DNA of 36,505 nucleotides from Bacteroidota bacterium (GCA_018831055.1 JAHJRE010000110.1:1-36505); one strand, 5' to 3'. Counted from the first letter of the stretch, positions 3,757 to 33,453 are shown. Made by a program: numbers and translations. Notes: generated by a model from the letters alone, not told the origin.

Positions 3757-4788
3757 TCACTTCCCCCTCACAACCAACTTAATAACCAACACCAAAATCA
3801 ACAATACTAAAATCCCCCCCGATAACCAGTATGCCCATATATTCACTATTCTCGATTGAGCATACATCATATAGTCTTCAAACATAAACGACATGGGGTC
3901 AACCTTCCATTCCACTTTATTGCCTTCCAGCTTCGCGGAATTGGTTTCCATGATGATCCCCGGCAGTTCCGCTTCCACGGTATAGCTTTCCATTAAAAGA
4001 ACCTCTATTAAAAAATGCACCTTTTTGTTCAATTCCTGAAATATGGGAGGTTCAATGTCATTTAACTTCTTAACCGCAGGATTTTTTGTCCATTCATAAT
4101 AAAGCTCAATGTAATTGTCGGGATGATCCCAGTTATTGTCCAGATAATGCTTAATGCTATCCTGGTATAATATGACATCCTGTGACAACAACTCCTGATC
4201 ATCAAGTCCTGCAATAGCTTTTTGCAGCACCTTGATGATCTCCCGGCTCACCACATCCTCAAAGTACTCGTTCGCCCTTTCATCAGCCGATTCAAGCCTG
4301 GCCGAGTCAACTTTATTAAGCGCAATCTTCTGACCACTGAGCCATAAAATATCCTCCTGATCAAGGTAATCCTGATAATCATACTCCCTGAAGGGATTGG
4401 CGGCTTTGATAACTTCCCGGTATTTCGGGTATGAATAAAAGAAACCGAACGACTTTCCAATGTCGAAGTGCCGGTACAATTGTTTCCTCCATCCTGTGTC
4501 GGCCGCAACCTCATCGTTCAGCTCCTTCGACTTCCTGAAAGTCTTTGAATAGGTAAGGGAAAAATTATTGCTCCGGGTAGTATCTTTACTGTACTCTTTT
4601 ATCCAGGTGGAATCAACAGGATAAGGCAGGTTCTTACTAAAAAAAACATCCGAAGAATCACCCGTGATGGTGAATATCCTTGTGAAGGAGCCATCTTCGT
4701 GTATTACTGTGGTTACGGTCACCTCTCTGCAGGATGCGAGTGAAAACAGAAGTATGACCAATATGCTGAAAATTTGTTTTGCTTTCAT
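3757..4788 (-). CDS. Hypothetical lipoprotein with C-terminal transmembrane anchor (343 aa), co-operonic with the ECF sigma/anti-sigma pair
   Basis: N-terminus MKAKQIFSILVILLFSLASC matches a lipoprotein signal with a lipobox-like cysteine. The C-terminus IWAYWLSGGILVLLILVLVIKLVVRGK is a hydrophobic helix. The gene starts 11 bp after the upstream ORF's stop on the same strand. Confidence 0.6.
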   Translation of the reverse strand: MKAKQIFSILVILLFSLASCREVTVTTVIHEDGSFTRIFTITGDSSDVFFSKNLPYPVDSTWIKEYSKDTTRSNNFSLTYSKTFRKSKELNDEVAADTGWRKQLYRHFDIGKSFGFFYSYPKYREVIKAANPFREYDYQDYLDQEDILWLSGQKIALNKVDSARLESADERANEYFEDVVSREIIKVLQKAIAGLDDQELLSQDVILYQDSIKHYLDNNWDHPDNYIELYYEWTKNPAVKKLNDIEPPIFQELNKKVHFLIEVLLMESYTVEAELPGIIMETNSAKLEGNKVEWKVDPMSFMFEDYMMYAQSRIVNIWAYWLSGGILVLLILVLVIKLVVRGK

Positions 4789-4799
4789 GGTAATAGATT

Positions 4800-5252
4800 T
4801 TAATTGTAATTATTTAAGGCTAACATCCTGGCTTTCTCTATTCTTCCCTTGACAAATCCCTCCGGTTCGTGTTCCTGCCCGGCAGCCATCATAACCTTTT
4901 TAACATCAGTATTGCTTAAAATGAACTCTAATCCTTTCAGCTGGCCGGATTTCTGAGAAAGCGAAGCATTCCTGTTTTCCTGCTGAATGACTTTGTCGAC
5001 AAAGATGTACTGCTCTATCCCAAATACAACCAACAGTGTAATGGATGCTGCAGCAAGAAATCTCACTGCCATAGAAATTGCCGTGCCATATCTCAGGATA
5101 AAACGGGGTGTTATTTCTTCCACCTCATCCTGAATCCCTTGCATTATGCTATCGGTCAGCTTCTCCGGGTTGTCCAGCACCGGATCCCTTTTCAGATTAC
5201 CAATGATTTTAACGTAAGCAGAATCATCGGCTATGTTTTTATTTCTGCTCAT
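4800..5252 (-). CDS. Putative anti-sigma factor (150 aa, single-pass membrane protein)
   Basis: Its start codon overlaps the ECF sigma stop by 4 bp (ATGA). It has a cytoplasmic N-terminus of about 65 aa and one transmembrane helix, AISMAVRFLAAASITLLVVFGI. Position and topology are typical of an ECF anti-sigma, but no diagnostic motif is present. Confidence 0.5.
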   Translation of the reverse strand: MSRNKNIADDSAYVKIIGNLKRDPVLDNPEKLTDSIMQGIQDEVEEITPRFILRYGTAISMAVRFLAAASITLLVVFGIEQYIFVDKVIQQENRNASLSQKSGQLKGLEFILSNTDVKKVMMAAGQEHEPEGFVKGRIEKARMLALNNYN

Positions 5253-5818
5253 TTGTTTTTCCTTTCACCGTTAAGTATATAGTTTAACTTTTCTTTTACT
5301 GCTTTCCTGGCATGATAAAGATTGCTTTTAACCTGTGTTTCGTCAATTTCCAGGATGGCTTCCACTTCTTCTGAACTCATTTCCTGGAGATCCCTCATTG
5401 CAAATACCAGCCGTTGCTTTTCAGGAAGTTTATCTGCCAGGAGTCTGATAATTTGTCCCAATTCTTTATTGTCCAGGATTAATTCCATTGAGTCTTCCTG
5501 CATCTGCTGTAGTTTATCTCCCAGATCATCGATCTTCATGGTATTGGCCCGCCGGATGGATCTGAACCTGTCAATAGCAGTATTTGTTACGATCCGGTAC
5601 ATCCAGGTGGTTAATTTCATTCGGGTATCATATTCACCTATTTTTCGCCATATCTTTATAAAACTTTCCTGGACGCTGTCCTTTGCTTCCTCCTCGTCGC
5701 AAAGTATCCTGAAGGCAAGGTTGTAAGCGTATTGCCGTTGTTCTTCGACAAGCTTCCGGAAAGCTTCCTGACTGCCGTTCTTTATTTCATTGATGATATC
5801 TCTGGTCACTATTTGCAT
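5249..5818 (-). CDS. RNA polymerase ECF-type sigma-70 factor (189 aa)
   Basis: The sigma-70 region 2 (...IKIWRKIGEYD...TWMYRIVTNTAIDRFRS...) and region 4 (...LPEKQRLVFAMRDLQEMSSEEVEAILEIDETQVKSNLYHARKAVKE...) have the ECF subfamily layout. Confidence 0.85.
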   Translation of the reverse strand: MQIVTRDIINEIKNGSQEAFRKLVEEQRQYAYNLAFRILCDEEEAKDSVQESFIKIWRKIGEYDTRMKLTTWMYRIVTNTAIDRFRSIRRANTMKIDDLGDKLQQMQEDSMELILDNKELGQIIRLLADKLPEKQRLVFAMRDLQEMSSEEVEAILEIDETQVKSNLYHARKAVKEKLNYILNGERKNK

Positions 5819-9046: not shown

Positions 9047-10111
9047 CTATTTGCCATACTCCAAACCATAACGGTTCAATATTTCGCTGTAAAGGGGCAA
9101 TTCTATCTTGCTGACCAAAACCGGATCAATTTCATGTATCAGGTCTTTATTGGTTGAAGCAAAAGAAAAATATTCCTTGGTATATGCGCTTGGTATCAAT
9201 AGAATTTTCTCTTCCAGGAATAAATGTTGTACCATGTACCTGAGTATGGCCTCATCGTATACAAAAGCCTGTAATATTTCTTTATTGACTGCATCCAGTC
9301 CTTTTCCAAGATCTTTCATGTTTTGTGATATGATACCGTATTCTTTCAGGAATTCTGCTGATGCCGAATTCTCAATGCTACCCACACTCACGCGTTGCAA
9401 ATCCTCCAGCCCCTTTACCGCTGATGATAAATTGTGTACCGTTAACGCTGAAGCAATGGCAGCAGTGAAACTGGATATCAAAACAATAGCCGTGAACATC
9501 CAGATTATGGAGATTATCCTGCCCATGATGGTTTTAGGTGTTTTATCCCCGTATCCCACCGTGGTCATTGTCACCGCCGACCACCAGATCCCATCACCAA
9601 GTCCCTTGATACCATCATTGAAATGATCTTTGTTTTTTCTCCTCTCAAGTAACCAGACTATGGTACCAAATATAACTATGATAAGAAAAAAAGCCGAGAC
9701 TATCCGAAGAAACTCCCATGACATCAATCCCCGGAAAATCGTAGTAAAAGTGCCTCCGGACTTTGCTTTCACCGCTATGGCCAGGTTGGTGACGTAAAAT
9801 GGTTGTGTGAAATAAAACTTCTTTATCCGTTCGGCAGTCACAGTCAATGGATTGATGCTAAGATCAACATCTCCATTCTCTATAGCCTGAAGTAACCCTC
9901 CCAGATCATATTCCCTGAATTCATAATCATAATGAAGATCCTCGGCTATTATTTTCCATAAATCAATAGATACTCCATTATATGTTTCACCATTTTTGAT
10001 TACAAACGGTGGCGCCTCCTTAATCCCTATTATCAGTTTCCTTTCCTGCGAATATCCTGAAAAACAACTAAAGATAACAGCGATGCCCAAAATCAAGACG
10101 TACCTTTTCAT
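9047..10111 (-). CDS. GluR0-like ligand-gated potassium channel: solute-binding lobe S1, then pore (M1–P–M2), then lobe S2
   Basis: It has a signal peptide. An SBP-family-3-like N-terminal lobe (KLIIGIKEAPPFVIK...GVSIDLW...) is followed by two hydrophobic helices flanking the K+ selectivity filter TMTTVGYGD, then a second binding-lobe segment. This is the split-SBP-plus-pore architecture of prokaryotic ionotropic glutamate receptor homologs. Confidence 0.72.
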   Translation of the reverse strand: MKRYVLILGIAVIFSCFSGYSQERKLIIGIKEAPPFVIKNGETYNGVSIDLWKIIAEDLHYDYEFREYDLGGLLQAIENGDVDLSINPLTVTAERIKKFYFTQPFYVTNLAIAVKAKSGGTFTTIFRGLMSWEFLRIVSAFFLIIVIFGTIVWLLERRKNKDHFNDGIKGLGDGIWWSAVTMTTVGYGDKTPKTIMGRIISIIWMFTAIVLISSFTAAIASALTVHNLSSAVKGLEDLQRVSVGSIENSASAEFLKEYGIISQNMKDLGKGLDAVNKEILQAFVYDEAILRYMVQHLFLEEKILLIPSAYTKEYFSFASTNKDLIHEIDPVLVSKIELPLYSEILNRYGLEYGK

Positions 10112-11781: not shown

Positions 11782-13473
11782 CTACCGGTGAATTTGCCCG
11801 AGATAAAACGATGGGCTCACACCGGTAACTTTTTTAAAGGCATTATAAAAAGTTACCCGGTTACTGAATCCCGCGTCGGAGGCAATGGCTTCAAGGGTAA
11901 GGTTTTCATGAGCATTTTCCGCGAAAAGCCTCAATACTTCATTTACACGGTACTCGTTGATCAGGGTATTGAAATTCCTGGAAAAGTGATTGTTGATCAG
12001 TCCTGACAAAACATTTTTATTGGTATTAAGCCGGGCCGCAAGGATATCCAGAGATAAACCAGGGTCAAGGTAGGCTTTTTCACTTTCAAGAACCGTCTGT
12101 AACCGGGAAATCAATTCCGTTCCGGCTTCATGATTGCATAAACCTGTCCTGGGTCTTCTTGATTTGCCAATCATCACCCCCCTTTCCACCAGATCCTGCT
12201 GCTTTTCAACCAGTAACCGGTGAGCTTTTACCAGTTTGTGGTTTCGCCACAAAAGCAGTATTAACAGAACCAACAAAGAAACAAGCAGGATGATCAGCAT
12301 GAGATTCCTGGAAAAATAGATCCTGTTCTTTTCTTCCAGGTTCCTGATCTCCCATTGTTTTTCATTGACCTCATGCCGGATCATCAATTGAGACAGTTCT
12401 GCTTCCCTTTCGCGGTGGTTCAGACTGTCGCTGATTTTCCGCTCAAGCTTGTAATATTTCAATGCCTGCAAAGGCTCACCGTTGGCCTCGTATGCCTCGG
12501 AAAGCACCTTTGCAATTTCCGCCTTATCTTCCGACATTTCACCCTTAACCGCCTGAACATAAGCCTGCAGTCCGGTTTCAATGGCTCTGACAGGTTGCCC
12601 CAGCTTCAGCCACACGTTGGCAATATTCTTGAGGGTTCCGGCTTGCCTTCCCGTGGCGTGGATATGCTCCATTACCGCCAGGGCCGAATCGTAATACATC
12701 AGAGCATTCGGGTATTGGCCCATTTTATAATATATCAAACCGTAGTTGTTGAGCCCCACCGCCAAATCATTAAGGTTTTTTGCTTTCCAGGAAATCATGA
12801 CGGAGCGCTCTGCATAATATAAAGCACTGTCGAATATTTCCTGCATCAGGTAAATATTGCTGATGTTCCCAAGAACAGAATACAGCAGGGATGAATCAGT
12901 CATATCACGGCAATAGGCGTATGCTTTGAAATAACACTTTAGAGCGGCCTCAAGGCTGTCGCTATTCATGTAAGTATTGCCGATATTATTGTAGTCAGAT
13001 GCAATCAATCGAATATCCCCGCTTTGTCTGTCTATCTCAAGTGATCGGATGAAATAATTCAATCCTGAACGATAATCACCCATTTGGGAATAAATGATCC
13101 CGATGTTTGCATACAAATCCGAAACACCGGCAGAATCCCCGGTCTCACGCATGAACATCAGAGCCTGGGAATAATAACCCAGGGCATTGGGGTACTCTCC
13201 CTTTACCAGGGCAGAAGTTCCCATCAGATGCTTTGCCCTGGCCAGTCCGCGTGAATAGCCCAGTTCATCTGAAAGTTTCTCTGCCTGCAGGGCCAATGCA
13301 TAAGTTGAGTCAGGATAGGAGAAGACAACCTGCCTTGCGTTATTTAAAATGGAGTTTATCCTTATCGTATCGTTGGAATTGACCGCTGTGGTTTCATTGG
13401 GTAAAGCGGCATTAAGGAAGGCGGAGGAGCCTGTCCATACGAAAATTATGAAAAAAACTATCCTATTCCGCAT
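11782..13473 (-). CDS. Membrane-anchored TPR-repeat / AraC-family HTH transcriptional regulator (563 aa)
   Basis: It has a signal peptide, a long TPR-like repeat region (recurring ...LG.Y..AL.YY..AL...) and a hydrophobic helix (LMLIILLVSLLVLLILLLW). The C-terminal AraC-type HTH reads ...LDPGLSLDILAARLNTNKNVLSGLIN...RVNEVLRLF...EAIASDAGFSNRVTFYNAFKKVTGVSPSFY. Confidence 0.75.
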   Translation of the reverse strand: MRNRIVFFIIFVWTGSSAFLNAALPNETTAVNSNDTIRINSILNNARQVVFSYPDSTYALALQAEKLSDELGYSRGLARAKHLMGTSALVKGEYPNALGYYSQALMFMRETGDSAGVSDLYANIGIIYSQMGDYRSGLNYFIRSLEIDRQSGDIRLIASDYNNIGNTYMNSDSLEAALKCYFKAYAYCRDMTDSSLLYSVLGNISNIYLMQEIFDSALYYAERSVMISWKAKNLNDLAVGLNNYGLIYYKMGQYPNALMYYDSALAVMEHIHATGRQAGTLKNIANVWLKLGQPVRAIETGLQAYVQAVKGEMSEDKAEIAKVLSEAYEANGEPLQALKYYKLERKISDSLNHREREAELSQLMIRHEVNEKQWEIRNLEEKNRIYFSRNLMLIILLVSLLVLLILLLWRNHKLVKAHRLLVEKQQDLVERGVMIGKSRRPRTGLCNHEAGTELISRLQTVLESEKAYLDPGLSLDILAARLNTNKNVLSGLINNHFSRNFNTLINEYRVNEVLRLFAENAHENLTLEAIASDAGFSNRVTFYNAFKKVTGVSPSFYLGQIHR

Positions 13474-13507
13474 GGGTTAAATTTTACGGAAAGATAGGGG
13501 TTTTTGA

Positions 13508-13540
13508 ACCACAATAGACACTTAGGACACATTAGTTTTT
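13508..13540 (-). promoter_or_regulatory. Copy 1 of the ctaatgtgt-n-cta-nn-gtg-n-ctattgtggt motif, about 35 bp upstream of the TPR–AraC regulator 11782-13473
   Basis: The minus strand reads aaaaactaatgtgtcctaagtgtctattgtggt, followed by ttcaaaaacccctatctttccgtaaaatttaaccc and then the ATG. It is in sense orientation relative to the regulator gene. Confidence 0.5.
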
Positions 13541-13557
13541 GCAGTTCTCATTAAATG

Positions 13558-16500
13558 CTAATTTATTAATACTCTATGAACCTGCATCTTTTCAGTCATA
13601 TGGATGCTAACAAAATAAATCCCCGAAGGCAAACCAAGCGTTTCCTGCTGATTGTGACTTCCGGTCAATGTGAACCTCAGCAACTCCCTTCCTGAAATAT
13701 CCGTCACAGAAGCCTCTCCCCTTTCACCATCCGGATTCAGGATATAGATGATGTCATTGTAATGAAATACCTGCAAAGGATGCATCATTACCGCGTCTTC
13801 TATCCCGGTTATATCCTTAAAATGCAGGAAGAAACGGCCCGTTCCGCTTTCATCCACCCAGGTGGTGTAACGCTCATTTTTCAGGTTGGTGAAGGTGTTT
13901 GTCTGGCGGTCTTCAAGGAAGAGGGGGATGCTTTCCAATTGCATTGTCTCGGCTGCAAACTCAATCTGCCGGGCCTCCGGAACATCTATACCAACATTGA
14001 CAACTATGGATTCTATGTTTTCCGGGGGCAGGGCCTGTATGGCAAAATCAACACCATTGTCTTCGATAAGCCGGGTATAGAGAGCGAGTTCAGGATTTCC
14101 CTTCATTTTTCCGACATCGTAGGATGGATCCAGGCCGGGCGTCATACCTGAAACTAATAAAATCTCAGTTTTGTTATATTGTTCTCCGGTACTTGCATAT
14201 AATCGCAAGCCCGGGTGATCGCTTTCAGTTTCATTTTTATAATAGGCGGATGTACCGTGTTTACGTATGCTCGTATTGAAATTCAGTGTTGCCCCGTTAC
14301 TGGCGGCCATAACCATAAAACCCTGGCCGGGTGAGGCGTAGAATGCAGCATCAGCGTTTGCAACCGCATCGTAATCGGCATTGCTTTTCCCGTCCCAGCC
14401 GGCGCTTTCATCCCAAAGGTAAATGGCTTCATATGAATCATTCAATGCAGCAGTATTTTGTGTCAGGAAATTATTGGTAGCATCTGCTCCGGTGTTAATG
14501 GCAATCGTTGAGCTGAAAGGATTACCAACAAGATTGGCACCCTCAAATGAACCTCCGGTTTTGGTGAGATTAATGCTCTGATTGGAAGTATGGAGGGGAC
14601 CGGATAAGGTAATGGTTTTATCTGTAGTCACATAATTTACTGCATATCCTTTGCAATCCGTAAAACCTTCTTCGTCCATTAACGTATTGGTTCCGCTGCC
14701 ATCCGCCCCATTCAGAATATCTATCCAGTAACCGGTATAAGAACCTGATGTATAGCTCTCTTCCCAGCGGTAGAATTGGTTGGATGAACTTCCGGGTGTC
14801 CCCAGCCCAAGATTTAATGCATCAAAATTTCCGCTGGTATTCACAGGATCTGAAATATAATGCCATCTGTCGTGGGTAAGAAAGCGCTCAGCTTTAATAC
14901 TTCCGTCGACTGTCCCGGTTAAGATCAGTGATCCCGTGCCTGTAGCATCCGATTCAAGGGTAAAATCACCTGGGCTGCTCAGGATATTATTATAAAGGTT
15001 ATGTCCGATAGACAACTGGCCACCGGGTTCCAGATCAAGGGAAGAGAGCGGGAGCATATACAACGACTTTGTTATGGTAAGTTTGTTCCCCGGATAAATA
15101 TTCGTATGGCCTATATTAAATACCGAACCATGAATGGTATGTGAACCCGAATAATTAAAGGTGAGGTCAACTCCGCTTCCTACCACCAGGTGATTACATG
15201 CAATGGCTGCACCAATGGTCGGATCACTCCCGCTTTGATTATGCACACCCACGTTATCTGTTGAAGTTGGTACACTCTCCCGGCTCCAGTTTGCGGCTGT
15301 GCTCCAATTGCTGGATGAGGTGTTGAGCCAGGTGTTGAAGGCGGTGGAGGTGGTCCAGGCGGGGCTATTCGTCAATGTCGCATCATTTGTGTTGCTAGTC
15401 AAATCCTGTAAAGCACTTCCTGAGTAATTGTCAAAGGTATAATAAGCAACCAGCCCTGCTTCATCGCCTTCCAGAGTTTTACACATGTTATCCCGGATCT
15501 CTTCTTCTGTGCGGACATCCGACCAAATACGAAGTTCGTCAAGCTTTCCATTGAAATATTGTTCATATCCATCTCGTTTCGCAATAATTATATTCCTGGA
15601 TAAAATACTTAAACTAACATTGGTAGAACCGCTCAGAACTCCATCAAAATAAAGATAAGCGGTTGTGCCATTATAGACGCCAGCTATATGGTGCCAGTTG
15701 TTATCATTCACTCCAAGCCATATTTCTGCTATACCACTCCCATTTCCAATACCGAAAATTATCGCAAGACTATTTGCAATTGTTAAAAAAAACCAATTAC
15801 TAGAAACATCTCTTCCATTATCTATAATTCCGTTAAAAGTTGATGTTGTTCCATCCATCTGCATCCAAAACTCAACAGTAAAATTTGAATTTTGAAGAGA
15901 AGCATTTGCCGGAATGGTTCCGTAATGTGATGATCCGTTAAAATCCAGGCAGTATTTCGGTCCGAAAAAAGCCGGGGAAGCTGACCACTCATTGCCATTC
16001 ATGTTTGTTAATGTACCATTAAGATTGTTGGAAGTAACATCATCCAGTGAGGTTCCGCTGGATTCATTAAAGTTATAATATGCAACCAGGCCGCTCTCTG
16101 AACCGGTAAATTCCTGGTACATTCCTGCCTGAATTTGTTCCTCCGTTTTTACAAAATCCCAAACCCGTACCTCATCGATCTTACCATTCCAGTAATATTG
16201 TGATACCCAAGGGTAAACACCTATTTTAAAAGACCCTGCATTTGCAATGGTACCTGAAAATGTTGAAGGCTGTGATCCGACATTTTTACCGTTTATATAT
16301 AGGATAATACTACCTCCACTGGTCCAGGTCATGGCCACATGCTGCCATAATCCGGTTGTCAGGGTTCCTGCCTGTATATATTTTTGTATACCGCTTGCAT
16401 CCCAGACTGACCCATATAATAATGTACCCGATGTTTCAAGGTCGAAAGCGGTTGAAGCCGGCAGCCATTCTACATTTGATTTTCCCATAATGGTGTGCGG

Positions 16501-16683
16501 TGCGGTTAAATCATCAGGGTAGATCCAGGCTTCAATTGTAAATGAAGTGAAATCAAAAACATCATCATCTGCAACCTCCACGTAATCATTTGCCCCATCA
16601 AAATCCAACGCGTTGTTCTGCGCCATCAAATGGGTGTTCAAACCAATAAACAATAGAATCAATAAAAAGACTTTGGCTTTCAT
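13558..16683 (-). CDS. T9SS-secreted LamG (concanavalin A-like lectin) multidomain protein (1041 aa)
   Basis: A signal peptide is followed by at least two LamG-type modules (LDFDGANDYVEV...EAWIYPD...DEVRVWDFVKTEEQI and LDFNGSSHYGT...DELRIWSDVRTEEEIRDNM). The C-terminal Por/T9SS sorting domain reads ...LPSGIYFVSIHMTEKMQVHRVLIN. Confidence 0.75.
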   Translation of the reverse strand: MKAKVFLLILLFIGLNTHLMAQNNALDFDGANDYVEVADDDVFDFTSFTIEAWIYPDDLTAPHTIMGKSNVEWLPASTAFDLETSGTLLYGSVWDASGIQKYIQAGTLTTGLWQHVAMTWTSGGSIILYINGKNVGSQPSTFSGTIANAGSFKIGVYPWVSQYYWNGKIDEVRVWDFVKTEEQIQAGMYQEFTGSESGLVAYYNFNESSGTSLDDVTSNNLNGTLTNMNGNEWSASPAFFGPKYCLDFNGSSHYGTIPANASLQNSNFTVEFWMQMDGTTSTFNGIIDNGRDVSSNWFFLTIANSLAIIFGIGNGSGIAEIWLGVNDNNWHHIAGVYNGTTAYLYFDGVLSGSTNVSLSILSRNIIIAKRDGYEQYFNGKLDELRIWSDVRTEEEIRDNMCKTLEGDEAGLVAYYTFDNYSGSALQDLTSNTNDATLTNSPAWTTSTAFNTWLNTSSSNWSTAANWSRESVPTSTDNVGVHNQSGSDPTIGAAIACNHLVVGSGVDLTFNYSGSHTIHGSVFNIGHTNIYPGNKLTITKSLYMLPLSSLDLEPGGQLSIGHNLYNNILSSPGDFTLESDATGTGSLILTGTVDGSIKAERFLTHDRWHYISDPVNTSGNFDALNLGLGTPGSSSNQFYRWEESYTSGSYTGYWIDILNGADGSGTNTLMDEEGFTDCKGYAVNYVTTDKTITLSGPLHTSNQSINLTKTGGSFEGANLVGNPFSSTIAINTGADATNNFLTQNTAALNDSYEAIYLWDESAGWDGKSNADYDAVANADAAFYASPGQGFMVMAASNGATLNFNTSIRKHGTSAYYKNETESDHPGLRLYASTGEQYNKTEILLVSGMTPGLDPSYDVGKMKGNPELALYTRLIEDNGVDFAIQALPPENIESIVVNVGIDVPEARQIEFAAETMQLESIPLFLEDRQTNTFTNLKNERYTTWVDESGTGRFFLHFKDITGIEDAVMMHPLQVFHYNDIIYILNPDGERGEASVTDISGRELLRFTLTGSHNQQETLGLPSGIYFVSIHMTEKMQVHRVLIN

Positions 16684-16792
16684 AAGTATTGATTTTAATA
16701 AAATTTGAGATAAAAGACCTGAAGCCGGATACTTGCAACCTGTAACCTGCAGCGCAAAAAATTAAGTGAATAGCCATCCCCCATGGCATTTG

Positions 16793-16870
16793 GCTTAATG
16801 ACTAATCTGGTTTGGCTTTCCGTCATAAAAGGAATCAGTATGTGACCCAAAAATATGAGAGAATAAAAAT
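16793..16870 (-). promoter_or_regulatory. Conserved 5' element upstream of LamG paralog 1 (copy A)
   Basis: The 34-nt core gcttaatgactaatctggtttggctttccgtcat (16793-16826) is identical at 31 of 34 positions to 20364-20397 upstream of the paralog. Weaker similarity continues through a shared tgacccaa block. The element lies about 105-190 bp upstream of the ATG at 16683. Confidence 0.55.
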
Positions 16871-17056
16871 AGGTAATTTTGTGTGGCAAATCAAGAGAAA
16901 ACTTTCATATATTATTAACATGAAATAAGGCTCCTAAATAACATTCCCAAGCAAGCATTATGTGAGGCAATTCTCCATTGAGTTTTTTACTTTAATCCGC
17001 TAACCAAACTACTCTGATTATTCTTGATAAATCAGGAAACGGGTAGTGATTAATTT

Positions 17057-17125
17057 ATTAATCTATCCACAATAGTCACAATAAAACACAGTAATAGACT
17101 TAAAAAACTAATGTGTGCTATTGTG
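17057..17125. repeat. Perfect 17-bp inverted repeat (ccacaatagtcacaata ... tattgtgactattgtgg) with a 35-nt spacer; the right arm is copy 2 of the ctattgtggt motif
   Basis: The arm 17057-17073 is the exact reverse complement of 17109-17125. The repeat starts about 24 nt past the stop of LamG paralog 2 (which ends at 17149). It lies about 375 bp upstream of LamG paralog 1. Confidence 0.6.
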
Positions 17126-17148
17126 ACTATTGTGGTGAAATACAATCA

Positions 17149-20100
17149 CTAATACGTCACCAACACCTTACGGCTCACAACTCCCTCGCTTGCCCGGAAA
17201 CACACCACATACAAGCCTCCGGGAAGGTTATGGGAATAGCTTTGTTCAGATTCTCCATCCAAAATGCCCGATAACACAGGTTTGCAGGTCATATCGAATA
17301 CGGCAAACTGCCCGGTAAGCTGTTCAGGATTGCTTATATGCAACGTATTACCACCGTTCCAGGCTAAAATATTTATAACCGAACCGGTAAACTGTTTTTC
17401 TCCGATCCCCACCGTGCTGAAATGCAGCAGGAAGCGCCCGGGATCATCGCCTTCGGTTGCGGTAAAGCTGTAAATGGGTTCATTGGTCAGGTTATGGGTA
17501 GTCTGGGTTTGGAGGTCGGTTAAGAAAACCGGAAGATCAGGATCAAGATCATCCGTTCCTTCAATCCGGATGTAAAATTGTGTTCCCTCATTTTTTATAA
17601 AATATAAGGGAATCTGTATGCTTTCACTAAGCTCCGGCAGACCGTTGGTCGATACTGCCTTCCCTTCGGTTTGCGTATAAAACTGAGGTGCATACCCCGG
17701 CAGATACCAGCAATCATAAGCAATATCATAACTCTGGCTTGCTTCAGGTATAAAACGGATCACCGTTTCCTGGGTAGTATGGTACTCAACATCATGAACC
17801 GTAAGCTTTAACGTGTTGACTCCTGTTGATTTATACCAAACATCCGTTTCATGACTTCTTAATGCCTTCGGGATGATCAGGCTTCCTGTCTGGTTTTCTG
17901 CCACATACACCATAAACCCTTGCATTGGCGGGATCATCTCTCCATTATCTATATCCGTATAGGAAGCGCTGCTTTCCTGCCAGATCTTTGCCGTGCTGCC
18001 TATATTCTGCTGCTGCCAATTGAGATCCCATTCAATGTCCCATGTCCAAATAACACCACACGGAAATGGATTTCCCAGCAAATGCCACCCTCTGTTCTCC
18101 GAAGTAAGGGTGTGTGTGAGGTTAGTGATGCTTACATTGGAATTATTCCAGGTTCCGCTGAATGACTTGGTCTGATCTGATCCGTAAGCCACCAGATATC
18201 CCTTTCCCACCGTGAAGGTGCTTTCAAAACTGCTGTTCCAGCTTCCATCTCCGGCCTTGGTGTTGATCCAGTAATTCGTGGGTTCATCCCAACTGTAAAA
18301 GTCCTCATTTACTGTGGGGGGATCGGATACAAAACCCGGCTGAATGGCCTGAGCTGAAACGGGAGAAGAAAGAAAATGCCAGCCATGATTAGCATCGGTC
18401 CATTGTGCAATATAGCGCTGAATTTCATAACTTCCGGATCCTGAATACGTACCGTCAGCAACAACGGAACCTGTTCCTGATGATGTACTTTCCAGAAGGA
18501 AAGTTCCCTCATTGACAATACCACTGTATATGTCGATCATCCCTCCCGGCCTGACCGTTAAAGTTTTTCCTGAGGTAATAACCGCCTTATCAACACGCAT
18601 TCCACAATTGTCGGGTATATCAAAATCTGAGTTTACCAGAAAGTTTTCATCCACATCCAATGGATTGGAAAAGGTAATATCCGCACTGGCGCCTATCACC
18701 AGGTTCCGGCATTCGATGTTCCAGTCATAGGATGGTTGTACCGAGGCCCCCCCGTAATAATAAACCCCGGTGTTATGGCCGGTTGTGGGGTATGATCCGA
18801 GGCTCCAGTTGGAGGTGGTACGCCAGTTGCTGTTGGTTGTATTCAACCAGGTGTTGAAGGCGGAAGAAGCTGTCCAGGATGGAATGGTATAAGAACCTCC
18901 ACCACTTCCCTGCCAGGTGCCGTCAATATCATTACCCGAGATATCCTGCAGGCTTGTCCCGGTAACATTATCAAATGTATAATAAGCAGCCAGGTTGCTT
19001 TCCTGGGTTACATCGAGCATCCGGCACATATTTTCACGAAGCTCCAATGGTGTTCTTACATCATTCCATATCCTGAGTTCATCAATGGAACCATTCATCA
19101 GACGGCCACCCGGTTCACCGGGTGAATCCCCGATCCTTGGATTTTGTGAAGAGGACAAGATCGATGTCGAATGGCTCGAGGAATACACTTCAACACCGTT
19201 AACATAAAGCCGGACATCAGATCCGTCGTAAGTAGCTGCGACATGCTGCCAGGTATTCAACGTCAATACCCCGGTGGCAATAGTGACTGCCCAGTTATAA
19301 CCCCCTGAATACGACATCGTAAAATCAAGGTCACCTCCAGCCCCTCCAAACCGGAATACATAACCCTCACTGTTCGCTCCCCCCCAATAATCATTTCCGA
19401 TGATCGTGTTCTTAAAATATTCATCCTTGAAATCAGTCGGGTATATCCAGGCTTCAATTGAAATATTGGTACCGGTAATATTTAATGCACTTTCTAATGC
19501 TACGTAGTCGTCAGTCCCATCAAAACCCAGGCACTGCTTTGGCCCGAAAAGTGCCGGGGATGTCTGCCATTCATTACCGCTCATATTTGTGAGGGTACCA
19601 TTAAAACTCCCTTTCGTGTCAATTGCAGTAGTTCCGGTGGTCTCGTTAAGCTTATAGTAAGCGACAAGATCCGAACCCGGACTGATGATCTCCCGGTACA
19701 TGTTCTGCCGGATCTCATCCTGGGTCCTGGCATCGTTCCATATCCTTACTTCATCCATCAATCCGTCAAAATATCTTTCGGTGCCCGATCCACCAATTTC
19801 CATAGTACTCATACCATTGGTAATATTCCCGGTATGGGCAACGGTTTTCTCCAGGATACCATTCACATATATTCTCAGATTCGATCCATCATAGGTACCT
19901 GCAATGTGATACCATTTGTTTACTAGCATTTGAGTTGTGCCGGTGCATTTTTTATTTCCGGAGCCTGTCGTAACTACAAATTGGGGAATATCATTGTCTT
20001 CCAGTTCGCCAGGATGGCTATCCCCAATCCTGAGTAAGGATGAAGCATCGTTGTGCCCGGCAACATTTGATATCCTGGCATCCGGAACCGGATCATTGAA

Positions 20101-20274
20101 TGAATGCGGATAAACCCAGGCTTCTATTGTGATTCCTGAAAATCCATTGGAACTTAAGCCTGTAATGCTTATATAATCATTATCGCCGGCAAAGTCGAGT
20201 AAGTTGTTCTGTGCCATGGAATTAATCCCTAAAATCCAAAGCAAAACAATTGACAATAATATTTTAGTCTTCAT
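17149..20274 (-). CDS. T9SS-secreted LamG multidomain protein, paralog of 13558-16683 (also 1041 aa)
   Basis: It has the same architecture and is collinear with its paralog, for example IDELRIWNDVRTPLELRENMCRML...AAYYTFDNVTGTSLQD...SAFNTWLNTTNSNW against LDELRIWSDVRTEEEIRDNMCKTL...VAYYTFDNYSGSALQD...TAFNTWLNTSSSNW. The T9SS C-terminal domain is ...GGLYVVCFRASEGVVSRKVLVTY. Confidence 0.75.
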   Translation of the reverse strand: MKTKILLSIVLLWILGINSMAQNNLLDFAGDNDYISITGLSSNGFSGITIEAWVYPHSFNDPVPDARISNVAGHNDASSLLRIGDSHPGELEDNDIPQFVVTTGSGNKKCTGTTQMLVNKWYHIAGTYDGSNLRIYVNGILEKTVAHTGNITNGMSTMEIGGSGTERYFDGLMDEVRIWNDARTQDEIRQNMYREIISPGSDLVAYYKLNETTGTTAIDTKGSFNGTLTNMSGNEWQTSPALFGPKQCLGFDGTDDYVALESALNITGTNISIEAWIYPTDFKDEYFKNTIIGNDYWGGANSEGYVFRFGGAGGDLDFTMSYSGGYNWAVTIATGVLTLNTWQHVAATYDGSDVRLYVNGVEVYSSSHSTSILSSSQNPRIGDSPGEPGGRLMNGSIDELRIWNDVRTPLELRENMCRMLDVTQESNLAAYYTFDNVTGTSLQDISGNDIDGTWQGSGGGSYTIPSWTASSAFNTWLNTTNSNWRTTSNWSLGSYPTTGHNTGVYYYGGASVQPSYDWNIECRNLVIGASADITFSNPLDVDENFLVNSDFDIPDNCGMRVDKAVITSGKTLTVRPGGMIDIYSGIVNEGTFLLESTSSGTGSVVADGTYSGSGSYEIQRYIAQWTDANHGWHFLSSPVSAQAIQPGFVSDPPTVNEDFYSWDEPTNYWINTKAGDGSWNSSFESTFTVGKGYLVAYGSDQTKSFSGTWNNSNVSITNLTHTLTSENRGWHLLGNPFPCGVIWTWDIEWDLNWQQQNIGSTAKIWQESSASYTDIDNGEMIPPMQGFMVYVAENQTGSLIIPKALRSHETDVWYKSTGVNTLKLTVHDVEYHTTQETVIRFIPEASQSYDIAYDCWYLPGYAPQFYTQTEGKAVSTNGLPELSESIQIPLYFIKNEGTQFYIRIEGTDDLDPDLPVFLTDLQTQTTHNLTNEPIYSFTATEGDDPGRFLLHFSTVGIGEKQFTGSVINILAWNGGNTLHISNPEQLTGQFAVFDMTCKPVLSGILDGESEQSYSHNLPGGLYVVCFRASEGVVSRKVLVTY

Positions 20275-20363: not shown

Positions 20364-20420
20364 GCTTAATGACTGATCTGGCTTGGCTTTCTGTCATTTA
20401 ATTAATCACAATTGACCCAA
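20364..20420 (-). promoter_or_regulatory. Conserved 5' element upstream of LamG paralog 2 (copy B)
   Basis: The sequence gcttaatgactgatctggcttggctttctgtcat (20364-20397) is the second copy of the copy-A element. It is followed by a conserved tgacccaa block and lies about 90-145 bp upstream of the ATG at 20274. Confidence 0.55.
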
Positions 20421-20596
20421 TTATATGAAGTTATAAAAATATATCATTTTTTAGATTAAATCAAGATTTTTTTCATGGAATAGACTCTTTCAATAAGCCA
20501 AAAATTTCAAATAAAACTTTCTATTGCATTTCTGCTTAATCAGTAAAGACAGCCAACTCTATAAATAAGAACCAGAAAAATAACGTATAATGCAAT

Positions 20597-20625
20597 CTAA
20601 TGTGTACTACTGTGACTATTGTGGT
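20597..20625 (+). promoter_or_regulatory. Copy 3 of the ctaatgtgt...ctattgtggt motif, 65-95 bp upstream of the TPR–AraC regulator 20719-22437
   Basis: The sequence ctaatgtgtactactgtgactattgtggt matches copy 2 at 27 of 29 positions. It is in sense orientation relative to the plus-strand regulator gene. Confidence 0.5.
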
Positions 20626-20718
20626 AAAAAAACCTTAAACCAATCCCATAGTATTTATAACTTTGGCAAGATTGGTAAATCTTAACAACATTTGGGATCA
20701 AAAGAAAAATCTCAGAGT

Positions 20719-22437
20719 ATGCTTAAAAGATTGTTGCACCTGTTAACCTTACTGCTTTTTGCTGGCATTCAAACGATTACATCTCAGAACAACACAGATG
20801 AAAGGCTATTCAGCCAACTTGATTCCCTGGAAGGGGAAGAGTTCAGGAAGAGTGTTGCTATTGTTCTTGACTCCATTTCCAGAATACCCGATTATCAATC
20901 TAAAAAAGCATACGTTAATTCTATCTTTACTATAACAGCTCAAAAGGATGAAATTGCACATATCCAGTCGTTGGTGCATACCGCCAGACTTACCGGCTCT
21001 TCCTCCAAAAAGCTTTTTGACAAGGCCTATCAAATTGCTTTCAAGCATAATCGTATCGACGATATGTGCCTTGTAGAACATGCCAGGGGATTGCATTATA
21101 TAGCAGAAAAAAAGTTCGACTCCGCTATGATCCATATTCTCAGGTACCGGGATATGACCCCGGAAGATACTAAAGGCGAAGGCTACAGAAATATCATTAA
21201 CCTCCTGGGAGATATTTATTACTATGCCGGATTGTATAACCAGGCAAGGGATATTTATTTTAACTTATACACACAATATAAAACAGATAATATCTGGAAC
21301 TTCTACAGGCCATACGTTATGATGAACAATCTCGGACAAATTGCCCTGTACTCCGGCGATATGTCTGAAGCAAAAAAATGGTTTATCCAATCGCTTGAAC
21401 GGGCAGACCAATATCTGCATACTTCCTACCGCAATAATACAATGGCCTATACGAGAATCAAACTTGCCGAAACAGAACTGGAATCGGGGAATCTGGACAG
21501 TGCCCGGATGCTGCTTGACGAAGTTGACAAATATCCTGAAACTACCCTTCATGAAGATGTTTTTCAGGAATATCTTTTCTGCAAAACAAAAATGCTGCTT
21601 GCTCAGGGAAAAGCAAACGAAGCCTTTAACACAGCCCATCTGCTGAAACCATCCGACTCTGTGTCATTTAACCAATATCGTTTTATTCCTGACATATATC
21701 TGCTGCTTTCGGATATTTACCTCCAGCAAAATGATTCTGCTTTGGCCTTTACGCATCTGCAGAAATATCAGAAAATCTCCGACTCCCTGCATAAAAGCGA
21801 AAACATCGCACAGTCAATGATTATCCTTGCCAACCGGAACCATGAACTTACCCGGAACGAACTGAAGTCAACAAAACAACGAAACCGGACACTCTACGGT
21901 GGACTGGTGGTTCTTTTAACCGTACTTCTCATTGTACTGTTCCAATACAGAAGCTTGTACCGGTCCAAACTTAAACTGGTCAGAAAATCGATGGAGAATA
22001 TTGGTGGTTTTGATTTACCTGAATTGAAAAAGGAAGCAGAACAATTACAAAACCATACAAATGAAACTGATTTACAAGAACAAAGAAAACTAATCAATAG
22101 GTTACGGGAATACATGGAATCCCAAAAACCATATTTGGATCCCGGGCTTAATATCCAGGAAACGGCAAAACAATTAACCACCAACCGGACTTACTTATCA
22201 CGAGCCATCAATACTCAACTGGGAACAACTTTTCCTAACTTCATCAACAACTACCGTATCCAGGAAGCCATCCGTCTCATCACGACCGGGTTTACCAAAA
22301 ACCACACTCAGGAAGCACTCGCCAAAAGATCGGGCTTTGCCAGCCGCACAGTCTTTACCTCCGCCTTTAAAAAAATCACCGGAGTAGTACCCTCGTTCTT
22401 TATTGCAAAGTATAAAGATGTTGAGAGGGAAGGGTGA
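20719..22437 (+). CDS. Membrane-anchored TPR / AraC-family HTH regulator, paralog of 11782-13473
   Basis: It has a signal peptide (MLKRLLHLLTLLLFAGIQTITSQ), a TPR-like region and a transmembrane helix (LYGGLVVLLTVLLIVLFQY). The C-terminal AraC HTH reads ...YLDPGLNIQETAKQLTTNRTYLSRAIN...RIQEAIRLI...EALAKRSGFASRTVFTSAFKKITGVVPSFF. An alternative upstream ATG lies at 20692. Confidence 0.75.
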   Translation: MLKRLLHLLTLLLFAGIQTITSQNNTDERLFSQLDSLEGEEFRKSVAIVLDSISRIPDYQSKKAYVNSIFTITAQKDEIAHIQSLVHTARLTGSSSKKLFDKAYQIAFKHNRIDDMCLVEHARGLHYIAEKKFDSAMIHILRYRDMTPEDTKGEGYRNIINLLGDIYYYAGLYNQARDIYFNLYTQYKTDNIWNFYRPYVMMNNLGQIALYSGDMSEAKKWFIQSLERADQYLHTSYRNNTMAYTRIKLAETELESGNLDSARMLLDEVDKYPETTLHEDVFQEYLFCKTKMLLAQGKANEAFNTAHLLKPSDSVSFNQYRFIPDIYLLLSDIYLQQNDSALAFTHLQKYQKISDSLHKSENIAQSMIILANRNHELTRNELKSTKQRNRTLYGGLVVLLTVLLIVLFQYRSLYRSKLKLVRKSMENIGGFDLPELKKEAEQLQNHTNETDLQEQRKLINRLREYMESQKPYLDPGLNIQETAKQLTTNRTYLSRAINTQLGTTFPNFINNYRIQEAIRLITTGFTKNHTQEALAKRSGFASRTVFTSAFKKITGVVPSFFIAKYKDVEREG

Positions 22438-33399: not shown

Positions 33400-33453
33400 T
33401 TTTCACAGAAAATCGGTCGTGGCTAAAACATTACTATTTGAACCAACCGGAAA

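What the first reader, a model, noticed from the sequence alone, without database searches (positions are those of the whole stretch)
13558..20274. Tandem pair of diverged, exactly equal-length (1041 aa) LamG-domain T9SS cargo paralogs
The two genes are collinear over their whole length: signal peptide, two LamG modules ending in the recurring D/IDE(V/L)R(I/V)W(S/N/D)...E(I/L)R motif, a shared SAFNTWLNT(S/T)(S/N)SNW block, and a C-terminal T9SS sorting domain. The sequences are nonetheless heavily substituted. Retaining identical length despite that divergence suggests structural constraint on a duplicated surface or secreted lectin-like protein, possibly an adhesin or carbohydrate-binding module. 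Duplication with rapid divergence of secreted lectin-like proteins is a pattern expected for proteins involved in host, phage or competitor interactions.
Basis: partly seen in the sequence, partly recalled or inferred. Interest (0 to 1): 0.55.

Follow-up and report, generated by a model that had tools for sequence, protein, structure and literature searches.

The report
RemA-like surface adhesins with swappable heads
Two neighbouring genes encode secreted, lectin-headed surface proteins of a large Bacteroidota family whose rear half matches the gliding adhesin RemA; their identical length is a coincidence, and the family evolves by moving binding heads between conserved stalks.

Summary
Two minus-strand ORFs of exactly 1041 aa (13558-16683 = A; 17149-20274 = B) are collinear end to end at 32% identity. 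Each has a signal peptide, two Laminin_G_3 domains, the NTWLNT..S.W block and a T9SS type A CTD.

- **Equal length is a coincidence.** The alignment needs about 40 indel runs, 64 residues on each side. 74 same-architecture homologs measure 1022 +/- 38 aa. B's closest relative is 1020 aa.
- **They are not fast-diverging recent duplicates.** Each has closer relatives in other genomes (A 44-46%, B 68%) than next door.

New findings:
- **RemA-like rear half.** The unannotated C-terminal ~560 aa is homologous to F. johnsoniae adhesins RemA and RemZ (profile E 2e-57) and to the unresolved half of P. gingivalis Mfa5. It models as a beta-helix stalk, two beta-sandwiches and the CTD.
- **Module reassortment.** B and P0070 share 94.6% nucleotide identity over stalk plus CTD (dS 0.1-0.2). 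Their heads are only about 40% identical, with saturated synonymous sites and sharp breakpoints.
- **Regulator pairing.** A transmembrane TPR-AraC regulator is conserved divergently beside B-type genes.

Verdict: new members of a known kind (RemA-type T9SS adhesins). Moderately interesting.

The parts
13558..16683 (-). Cargo gene A, 1041 aa: signal peptide, 2x LamG head, junction block, RemA-type stalk, type A CTD
   Evidence: ORF. Pfam and NCBIfam hits. Exact match to an NCBI MAG protein named 'T9SS type A sorting domain-containing protein'.
15364..16620 (-). A head: two Laminin_G_3 domains (aa 22-440)
   Evidence: PF13385 E 2.5e-54 with two stretches. The nearest head is P0004 at 63-65% identity, although that protein's stalk is only 33% identical.
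15259..15363 (-). A junction block (aa 441-475), TAFNTWLNTSSSNWSTAANWS...
   Evidence: 63% identical between A and B. It is the most conserved segment family-wide, with 59% mean pairwise identity. RemA carries the same block at residues 867-932.
13804..15258 (-). A stalk (aa 476-960): right-handed beta-helix followed by two beta-sandwich domains, the RemA/RemZ-type pre-CTD module
13558..13803 (-). A type A T9SS C-terminal sorting domain (aa 961-1041) plus stop codon
17149..20274 (-). Cargo gene B, 1041 aa, same architecture as A
   Evidence: ORF. Pfam and NCBIfam hits. Full-length AF2 model pLDDT 87.7, pTM 0.79. Exact match to an NCBI MAG protein named 'LamG domain-containing protein'.
18889..20211 (-). 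B head: two Laminin_G_3 domains (aa 22-462)
17159..18856 (-). B stalk plus CTD: the tract that is 94.6% nucleotide-identical to L001 (P0070). The 5' breakpoint lies in the junction block at about aa 483. The 3' breakpoint lies within the last four codons.
   Evidence: blastn. Sliding-window identity and junction alignment. dS 0.11-0.19 inside the tract, saturated in the head.
20719..22437 (+). reg2: TPR sensor, one TM helix, HTH_18/AraC regulator. It is divergent from B. The ORF opens at TTG 20692; the likely start is ATG 20719.
   Evidence: Pfam. TM helix at about aa 389-410. Full-length orthologs at 41-53% identity lie divergently beside a family member in L001, L002, L011, L045 and L087/88.
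11782..13473 (-). reg1: signal peptide, TPR, one TM helix, HTH_18/AraC regulator. It starts 84 nt downstream of A on the same strand.
   Evidence: Pfam. 33% identical to reg2 over the C-terminal 254 aa. Hydrophobic segments at aa 5-23 and 385-405. A reg1-like fragment lies divergent from a family member in L054.
16793..16896 (-). Promoter/leader block upstream of A, with a -7 box TATTTTTG followed by ATGACGGAAAGCCAAACCAGATTAGTCATTAAGC
   Evidence: 76% identical over 104 nt to the block upstream of B, E 1e-18. The core occurs only at these two sites in the window, with 0 matches expected by chance.
20364..20466 (-). Promoter/leader block upstream of B, paralogous to the one upstream of A
   Evidence: (repeat D8). 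No stable RNA fold (z +0.75 and -0.57). No Rfam family.
17067..17135 (-). Long hairpin directly after the B stop codon (27-nt arms); probable terminator or insulator between B and A
   Evidence: Inverted repeat I2. RNA fold -34.7 kcal/mol, z -7.3. One arm recurs at 20594-20629, and a degenerate copy follows the A stop at 13499-13545.
20658..20688 (+). reg2 promoter: -7 box TAACTTTG followed by GATTGGTAAATCTTAACAA, an imperfect palindrome of the form TTGnTAAnnnTTAnCAA
   Evidence: The same element lies upstream of reg2 orthologs in L002, L011, L045 and L087/88. There is a single copy in the window.

Best explanation
A and B are two long-diverged members of a large modular family of T9SS type A cargo proteins. 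They most likely act as cell-surface lectin-type adhesins built like F. johnsoniae RemA and RemZ.

Proposed mechanism:
- A Sec signal peptide takes each protein to the periplasm.
- The C-terminal beta-sandwich CTD docks on PorV inside the SprA/Sov translocon and drives export. This is inferred from homology.
- Once outside, a conserved rear part holds out a pair of LamG lectin-like domains that bind a glycan or protein ligand. The rear part is a short right-handed beta-helix plus a two-sandwich module shared with RemA, RemZ and Mfa5.

The two genes are separate transcription units.
- They share a promoter/leader block.
- A strong hairpin separates them.
- They probably respond to the flanking transmembrane TPR-AraC one-component regulators, whose TPR sensor lies outside the cytoplasm.

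Evolution: the family diversifies by reassorting heads, stalks and CTDs at domain borders, above all at the conserved NTWLNT...NWS junction. Sometimes the head moves together with its regulator.

Status of each step:
- Shown: architecture, homology, mosaicism, synteny.
- Inferred: surface location, ligand binding, regulation.
For: Architecture:
- Two Laminin_G_3 domains plus TIGR04183 in both proteins.
- High-confidence models (A aa 441-1041: pLDDT 91.2, pTM 0.81; full-length B: pLDDT 87.7, pTM 0.79) showing LamG-LamG, beta-helix, two sandwiches and CTD.

Homology:
- A 75-sequence family profile matches RemA residues 931-1435 and RemZ residues 519-1113 at E 1.8e-57 and 1.9e-57.
- They share the motifs GNPfPSai, yIpagQGFmV, mR..fYK, YDa.k, vyLeDk and RF.Lhf.
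- Mfa5 matches at E 5e-17.

Literature on the relatives:
- RemA is a type A CTD lectin adhesin that is surface-anchored and partly released (PMC12618676).
- RemZ is a RemA homologue trapped in the translocon (PMC10994853).

The module is widespread and sits just before the CTD:
- 3101 representative clusters at E <= 1e-3 and 839 at E <= 1e-30.
- They carry varied heads.

Old paralogs:
- A's best hits are 44-46% identical and B's are 68% and 52%, against 32% between A and B.
- L087 has an A-type and a B-type stalk in tandem beside a reg2 ortholog.

Reassortment:
-.
- Head-versus-stalk correlation is r 0.29 (rho 0.12), against 0.83 between the two sandwich domains.
- Only 14 of 77 proteins have the same nearest neighbour in head and stalk.

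Regulation:
- reg2 orthologs lie divergent from family members at five other loci.
- A and B share a 104-nt upstream block.
- A hairpin with z -7.3 follows B.
Against: - No experiment exists on these proteins or on any close relative.
- No T9SS or gliding gene lies in the window, so the presence of the machinery in this genome is assumed.
- A single-sequence search of A aa 441-1041 against PDB sequences finds nothing. The RemA link therefore rests on the profile, although that profile match is long and strong.
- B passes TIGR04183 by only 0.3 bits.
- A has Arg where type A CTDs have the conserved Lys that contacts PorV. B keeps the Lys (PMC10994853).
- RemA's own ligand-binding domain is a different lectin type, so ligand and role (gliding, aggregation, nutrient capture) cannot be transferred.
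- A-type relatives often lack a neighbouring regulator.
- The shared upstream block is not found in other genomes.
- Most sequences come from metagenome assemblies, where chimeric contigs are possible.
Confidence: 0.62

Rival explanations
1. One reading: a recent tandem duplication followed by rapid, possibly positively selected divergence, with total length held constant by structural constraint.
For: The genes are adjacent, on the same strand, collinear and both exactly 1041 aa. A random pair of family members shares its length only 0.7% of the time. Three other family members are also 1041 aa.
Against: - 22 plus 18 indel runs separate A from B.
- B's nearest relatives are 1020 and 1022 aa.
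- The corresponding pair in L087 is 1562 and 1467 aa.
- Each paralog is nearer to proteins of other genomes than to its neighbour.
- dN/dS is 0.08-0.44 where it can be measured.
- Divergent heads have saturated synonymous sites, so they are old sequences brought in, not fast-evolving ones.
Confidence: 0.04
2. They are secreted polysaccharide-degrading enzymes: a beta-helix lyase or hydrolase core with LamG domains acting as carbohydrate-binding modules, released into the medium by the T9SS.
For: - LamG-like modules occur as CBMs in arabinanase AbnA and in sialidases.
- Many type A CTD cargos are soluble enzymes (PMC12618676).
Against: - No Pfam or NCBIfam enzyme family is hit at E <= 0.1.
- The best beta-helix matches are non-enzymatic adhesin passengers and tapirins.
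- The helix is short, about 170 aa.
- The region is homologous to the adhesins RemA and RemZ.
Confidence: 0.1
3. They are Mfa5-like accessory or tip subunits of type V pili, exported by the T9SS and then built into a fimbria.
For: The family profile matches the pre-CTD half of Mfa5 at E 5e-17. There are weak partial hits to the NCBIfam TafC fimbrial family.
Against: - No vWA domain and no fimbrilin or mfa-like genes are present in the window.
- The TafC hits score 33 and 67 bits against a cut-off of 410, and cover only the LamG-like part.
- The match to RemA and RemZ is much stronger and longer than the match to Mfa5.
Confidence: 0.05
4. The head/stalk mosaicism is an artefact of metagenome assembly, with chimeric contigs joined at the conserved junction block. 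On this view the family actually evolves as whole genes.
For: L001 is a 5.6-kb MAG contig. The 5' breakpoint lies in the most conserved nucleotide block of the family, which is where assemblers can cross over.
Against: - The pattern is family-wide. Only 14 of 77 proteins have the same nearest neighbour in head and stalk.
- Three head types sit on one stalk clade in proteins from different samples and sources. P0122 alone was seen on four contigs.
- The 3' breakpoint falls at the stop codon, not in a repeat.
- L001 also carries an internally deleted reg2 remnant at 75-91% identity, which fits real locus history.
- Some family members lie on megabase contigs.
Confidence: 0.08

Closest known systems
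RemA (Fjoh_0808), Flavobacterium johnsoniae mobile cell-surface lectin adhesin; sequence of PDB chain 8gl6_D
   Same: - Sec signal peptide and type A T9SS CTD.
- A homologous ~500-aa region directly before the CTD, with shared motifs (RemA residues 931-1435).
- The W.G..S.W....NW...VP..D.V.I junction block (RemA residues 867-932).
- A lectin-type binding part carried at the N-terminal side.
   Different: - According to the literature, RemA's binding domain is a galactose-related lectin. Here the head is two Laminin_G_3 domains.
- RemA is 1436 aa and occurs in a gliding Flavobacterium.
- Identity is too low for a single-sequence search to find.
- Movement on the cell surface has not been tested here.
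RemZ (Fjoh_0803), a RemA homologue trapped in the SprA-PorV translocon; PDB 8gl8, 8glm, 8gln
   Different: The N-terminal half is different, with no LamG. Only the CTD of RemZ is resolved (PMC10994853), so the stalk cannot be compared with an experimental structure.
Mfa5, tip protein of the Porphyromonas gingivalis Mfa1 fimbria; PDB 6to1
   Same: It is a T9SS type A cargo. Its pre-CTD half (chain residues about 700-968) matches profile positions 546-784 at E 5e-17.
   Different: The Mfa5 head is a vWA domain plus Ig-like domains with an isopeptide bond. It is encoded in a fimbrial operon. The matching part is not resolved in the crystal structure, which covers residues 99-664 (PMC7835359).
Beta-helical adhesin passengers (Pet 4om9, Hap 3syj, IcsA 5ke1, TibA 4q1q, Ag43 7koh) and Caldicellulosiruptor tapirins (6n2b)
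   Different: They use a different secretion route (type V, or Gram-positive). There is no translocator barrel here. Sequence identity is 8-13%. This is an analogy of design, not family membership.
BACOVA_03559 putative carbohydrate-binding protein (4dqa) and other Laminin_G_3 / pentraxin / CBM40 modules
   Different: Those proteins lack the RemA-type stalk. Their ligands are unknown or diverse (sialic acid, phosphocholine, proteins), so specificity cannot be transferred.

Membership tests
T9SS type A cargo | N-terminal Sec signal peptide | tested here: met
   Both proteins start MK.K, then a hydrophobic stretch, then MAQNN. Residues 2-17 form a helix in the B model. No dedicated signal-peptide predictor was available.
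T9SS type A cargo | C-terminal TIGR04183 (Por_Secre_tail) domain above the curated cut-off | tested here: met
   A scores 30.8 bits and B 23.3 bits against a cut-off of 23. B is marginal. Pfam PF18962 is below its cut-off in A and absent in B.
T9SS type A cargo | CTD has the seven-stranded beta-sandwich fold of solved type A CTDs | tested here: met
T9SS type A cargo | Conserved Lys near the C-terminus that bonds to PorV (RemZ K1110, PMC10994853) | tested here: inconclusive
   The column is at least 90% Lys in the family (K597, K1036). B has K1036. A has R1037 at that position.
T9SS type A cargo | The genome encodes the T9SS machinery (SprA/Sov, PorV, PorK-N/GldK-N, PorU/Z) | not testable with these tools
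   No such gene lies in the 36.5-kb window. The source contig could not be retrieved.
RemA/RemZ-type adhesins | Homologous ~500-aa region between the binding part and the CTD | tested here: met
   The family profile matches RemA at E 1.8e-57 (positions 541-1019) and RemZ at E 1.9e-57 (positions 462-1019), with shared motifs. A single-sequence search does not detect them.
RemA/RemZ-type adhesins | RemA's own lectin domain | tested here: not met
   Pfam finds only Laminin_G-type domains in the heads. The profile alignment with the RemA N-terminal part is not significant (domains 1 and 2).
RemA/RemZ-type adhesins | Surface exposure, movement along the cell and a role in gliding or aggregation | not testable with these tools
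   This needs experiments. It is known for RemA only (PMC12618676, PMC8481357).
Laminin_G_3 (PF13385) lectin-like domains | Pfam match above the gathering score, and a jelly-roll fold | tested here: met
Mfa5-like type V pilus tip proteins | vWA domain and location in a fimbrial (mfa-type) operon | tested here: not met
   No vWA hit. The neighbouring genes are regulators and housekeeping genes.
Type V autotransporter adhesins | C-terminal outer-membrane beta-barrel translocator | tested here: not met
   The C-terminus is a T9SS CTD, and there is no autotransporter Pfam hit. Only the beta-helix design is shared.

The most novel reading that the evidence does not exclude
The family may be a natural plug-and-play adhesin system with two undescribed features.

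(1) A roughly 390-aa two-sandwich module lies directly before the CTD.
- It is shared by RemA, RemZ, Mfa5 and more than 3000 protein clusters, and is absent from Pfam.
- It could be an undescribed domain that holds type A cargo on the cell surface or couples it to a surface track.

(2) Binding heads may be exchanged as cassettes at the conserved NTWLNT...NWS junction, sometimes together with a cognate transmembrane TPR-AraC sensor-regulator.
- L001 illustrates this. A different regulator and a different head sit between a decayed reg2 remnant and a stalk that is 95% identical to B's.
- On this reading, what the cell senses and what it sticks to would change together.
Probability: 0.25. Interest if true: 0.65.

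Novelty: new member of a known kind. Interest (0 to 1): 0.4.

Why it matters
- **Annotation.** Hundreds of 'LamG domain-containing' or 'T9SS sorting domain-containing' proteins in uncultured Bacteroidales get a more precise reading: RemA-type surface adhesins with a lectin head on a beta-helix stalk.
- **An unnamed module.** A widespread ~390-aa module before the CTD links RemA, RemZ and Mfa5. It is a candidate for the still unknown way in which some type A cargos stay on the cell surface.
- **Evolution.** The sharp recombination breakpoints show how such adhesins change specificity, by head replacement rather than point mutation. That matters for reading adhesin repertoires in metagenomes and for engineering T9SS surface display.
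- **Method.** It is a caution against reading meaning into equal gene lengths.

Tried and rejected
I measured it on B versus P0070 and P0122 instead.
- **Single-sequence phmmer of A aa 441-1041 against PDB sequences:** no hit. Only the profile works.
- **The look-up of encoding contigs for A itself:** not on record, so the source genome and its T9SS genes could not be examined.
- **The search for related loci with the 75-sequence alignment:** A 14-sequence alignment worked.
- **Metagenome scan with the reg2 promoter element GATTGGTAAATCNTAAYAA:** 61 matches, but only one real locus, and it duplicates L088. The rest are chance matches.
- **Shared A/B leader block as a structured RNA:** no Rfam family, no stable fold, and not found in other loci. 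It is more likely a DNA-level site.
- **Rfam miRNA-type hits at 17060-17152:** they only reflect the long hairpin.
- **Conservation of the whole four-gene layout:** only partly conserved. The downstream TPR protein in L087 ends in a LuxR/GerE-type HTH, not an AraC type.
- **The large left-end ORF as a third family member:** rejected.

Full report
**Observation.** BLASTP aligns them end to end at 359/1105 identities (32%), E 8e-131. Identity by region is signal peptide 43%, LamG1 36%, LamG2 40%, the NTWLNT block 63%, the middle thirds 34/38/30% and the CTD 25%. Similarity is therefore not confined to the generic ends, and the CTD is the least similar part. Pfam finds two Laminin_G_3 stretches in each protein (E 2.5e-54 and 1.3e-57). 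TIGR04183 passes its 23-bit cut-off in both, A at 30.8 bits and B at a marginal 23.3. The DE(V/L)R(I/V)W...E(I/L)R motifs are the normal end of a Laminin_G_3 domain.

**Equal length.** This is the one feature that made the pair look special, and it does not survive.
- The alignment has 1105 columns, with 22 gap runs in A and 18 in B. These happen to sum to 64 residues on each side.
- 74 homologs of the same architecture measure 1021.6 +/- 38.2 aa (range 916-1095). A random pair shares its length 0.7% of the time.
- B's nearest relatives are 1020 and 1022 aa.
- The corresponding tandem pair in another genome is 1562 and 1467 aa.

Length is not conserved in the family, so the match is a coincidence.

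**What the proteins are.** Residues ~440-960 had no Pfam or NCBIfam annotation. I built a profile of 75 family members and searched PDB chain sequences.
- It matches F. johnsoniae RemA (chain residues 931-1435) and RemZ (residues 519-1113) at E 1.8e-57 and 1.9e-57, running up to the last residue.
- The shared motifs are GNPfPSai, yIpagQGFmV, mR..fYK, YDa.k, vyLeDk and RF.Lhf.
- P. gingivalis Mfa5 matches at E 5e-17 in its pre-CTD half.

A single sequence finds none of these. Only the CTDs of RemA and RemZ are resolved (PMC10994853), and only residues 99-664 of Mfa5 (PMC7835359). No experimental structure of this region therefore exists.

**Predicted structures.**
- AlphaFold models are confident. 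A aa 441-1041 gives pLDDT 91.2 and pTM 0.81. Full-length B gives pLDDT 87.7 and pTM 0.79.
- They show LamG-LamG, a short right-handed beta-helix, two beta-sandwich domains and a CTD.
- Foldseek gives TM 0.82 and rmsd 1.9 A for the RemZ CTD.

RemA is a type A CTD lectin adhesin that is anchored on the surface and partly released (PMC12618676). It mediates cell-cell adhesion through a polysaccharide (PMC8481357).

**How common the module is.**
- An exhaustive phmmer search with the A stalk alone finds 3101 representative clusters at E <= 1e-3, and 839 at E <= 1e-30.
- The proteins are 205-2492 aa long, and the module always ends ~80 residues before the C-terminus. The conserved core is A residues ~566-960.
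- Other carriers have one, two or four LamG domains, GLUG or Chlam_PMP repeats, or nothing known.
- Full-length relatives come mostly from uncultured Bacteroidales and Lentimicrobiaceae MAGs.
- The double-LamG head alone is spread through the FCB group.

**Not recent duplicates.**
- A's best full-length relatives are 44-46% identical, and B's are 68% and 52%. A and B are only 32% identical to each other.
- In contigs L087/L088 a reg2 ortholog (52-53% identical) lies divergent from two tandem family members.
- The stalk of the first (P0002) is 51% identical to A's and 25% to B's. The stalk of the second (P0099) is 43% identical to B's and 26% to A's.
- The two stalk types were therefore already neighbours before these lineages split.

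**Mosaic evolution (unexpected).**
- Per-domain comparison of B with P0070 (L001) gives 84-97% amino-acid identity with dS 0.11-0.19 and dN/dS 0.10-0.44 across the beta-helix, both sandwiches and the CTD.
- Both LamG domains are only 42% identical, with pS 0.74-0.80, which is saturated.
- At nucleotide level, window 18856-17159 is 94.6% identical to L001 over 1698 nt.
- The 5' breakpoint falls inside the conserved block at B residue ~483, and the 3' breakpoint falls within the last four codons.
- P0122 keeps the stalk at 66-81% identity, while its head is 33-43% identical and its CTD 22%.
- The B-stalk clade (68-94% identical stalks) carries three unrelated head types.
- A's head is nearest to P0004 (63-65% head, 33% stalk). 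B's head is nearest to P0127 and P0128 (58% head, 25-28% stalk).
- Over 77 full-length members, head and stalk pairwise identities correlate weakly (Pearson 0.29, Spearman 0.12). The two sandwich domains correlate at 0.83.
- Only 14 of 77 proteins have the same nearest neighbour in head and stalk.
- The junction block is the most conserved segment, at 59% mean identity against 24-37% elsewhere.

Saturated synonymous sites in the swapped parts point to replacement by recombination rather than rapid substitution.

**Regulators and cis elements.**
- The pair is flanked by two paralogous proteins, each with a TPR region, one TM helix and a C-terminal HTH_18/AraC domain. NCBIfam gives only partial matches.
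- Full-length reg2 orthologs (41-53% identical) lie divergently next to a family member in L001, L002, L011, L045 and L087/88. A-type relatives often lack one.
- L001 holds an internally deleted remnant of a reg2 ortholog (91% and 75% nucleotide identity). After it come a different regulator, a different head and the B-type stalk. This suggests that regulator and head were replaced together, which is an inference.
- A and B share a 104-nt upstream block at 76% identity (E 1e-18). It contains a Bacteroidota-type -7 box.
- The block's core is unique to these two sites in the window. It does not fold as RNA and matches no Rfam family.
- A hairpin of -34.7 kcal/mol (z -7.3) follows the B stop codon, so the genes are probably transcribed separately.

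**Verdict.** The finding is real but ordinary in kind. These are two old members of a large, generically annotated family of T9SS cargo, and I read them as RemA-type lectin adhesins. The equal length is chance. What goes beyond the finding is the link to RemA, RemZ and Mfa5, the unnamed pre-CTD module, and clear evidence for head/stalk/CTD reassortment with a conserved regulator partner. Surface location, ligand and regulation remain inferred.

Noticed in passing
window 20658-20688 (+); L002 1937-1955, L011 4079-4097, L045 3838-3856, L087 8826-8844: Upstream of reg2-type regulators, a TAnnTTTG -7 box is followed at once by GATTGGTAAATCTTAACAA, an imperfect palindrome of the form TTGnTAAnnnTTAnCAA. 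It is nearly identical in five genomes whose regulator proteins are only 41-53% identical. It may be an operator at the transcription start.
   Followed up: partly
window 16793-16896 and 20364-20466 (minus strand): A 104-nt block upstream of A and B is 76% identical (E 1e-18), at least as conserved as the coding DNA. Its core is ATGAC[GA]GAAAGCCAA[AG]CCAGAT[TC]AGTCATTAAGC. It has no stable RNA fold, no Rfam match, and is not seen in other genomes.
   Followed up: partly
window 17067-17135; copies at 20594-20629 and 13499-13545: A CCACAATAGTCACAAT-type element forms a very stable hairpin right after the B stop codon (z -7.3). One arm recurs just upstream of reg2, and a degenerate copy follows the A stop codon. 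It may be a terminator or a small locus-specific repeat.
   Followed up: partly
L001 1-463 (GCA_018401355.1, JAGYLD010000132.1): An internally deleted remnant of a reg2 ortholog. L001 1-139 matches window 22343-22205 at 91%, and L001 135-463 matches window 20980-20652 at 75%. It lies beside a different, intact regulator.
   Followed up: partly
window 20692-20719: The reg2 ORF opens at TTG 20692. The signal-peptide-like sequence MLKRLLHLLTLLLF and the orthologs both point to ATG 20719 as the real start.
   Followed up: partly
window 1-3458 (minus strand): A large ORF of at least 1152 aa has a signal peptide and runs off the left end of the window. It has no Pfam hit and no PDB sequence hit, and it is unrelated to A and B.
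   Followed up: partly
window 32200-36413 (+): Lanthipeptide-type genes: a LanC-like cyclase (399 aa) followed by a split LanB dehydratase (Lant_dehydr_N, 690 aa; Lant_dehydr_C, 296 aa). I did not look for a precursor peptide.
   Followed up: no
window 9047-10111 (minus strand): A 354-aa protein combines a solute-binding domain (SBP_bac_3, Lig_chan-Glu_bd) with an ion-channel pore (Lig_chan, Ion_trans_2). It looks like a prokaryotic glutamate-receptor-type channel.
   Followed up: no
window 3757-5818 (minus strand): An ECF sigma factor (189 aa) is followed by two ORFs of 150 and 343 aa with no Pfam hit. These may be an anti-sigma factor and a partner, lying next to the large secreted ORF.
   Followed up: no
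L086 285-11195 (JGI 3300079579): Another contig carries at least two family members (1003 and 1048 aa) on one strand. Between and after them lie a small PTL_trimer/Lcl_C protein, a PID_CTERM protein and a 977-aa ORF. So arrays of this family occur elsewhere, without a visible regulator.
   Followed up: no
L087 18227-20056: The TPR protein downstream of the tandem pair in L087 ends in a LuxR/GerE-type HTH instead of an AraC type. The position (a TPR regulator after the pair) is kept, but the DNA-binding domain is not.
   Followed up: partly
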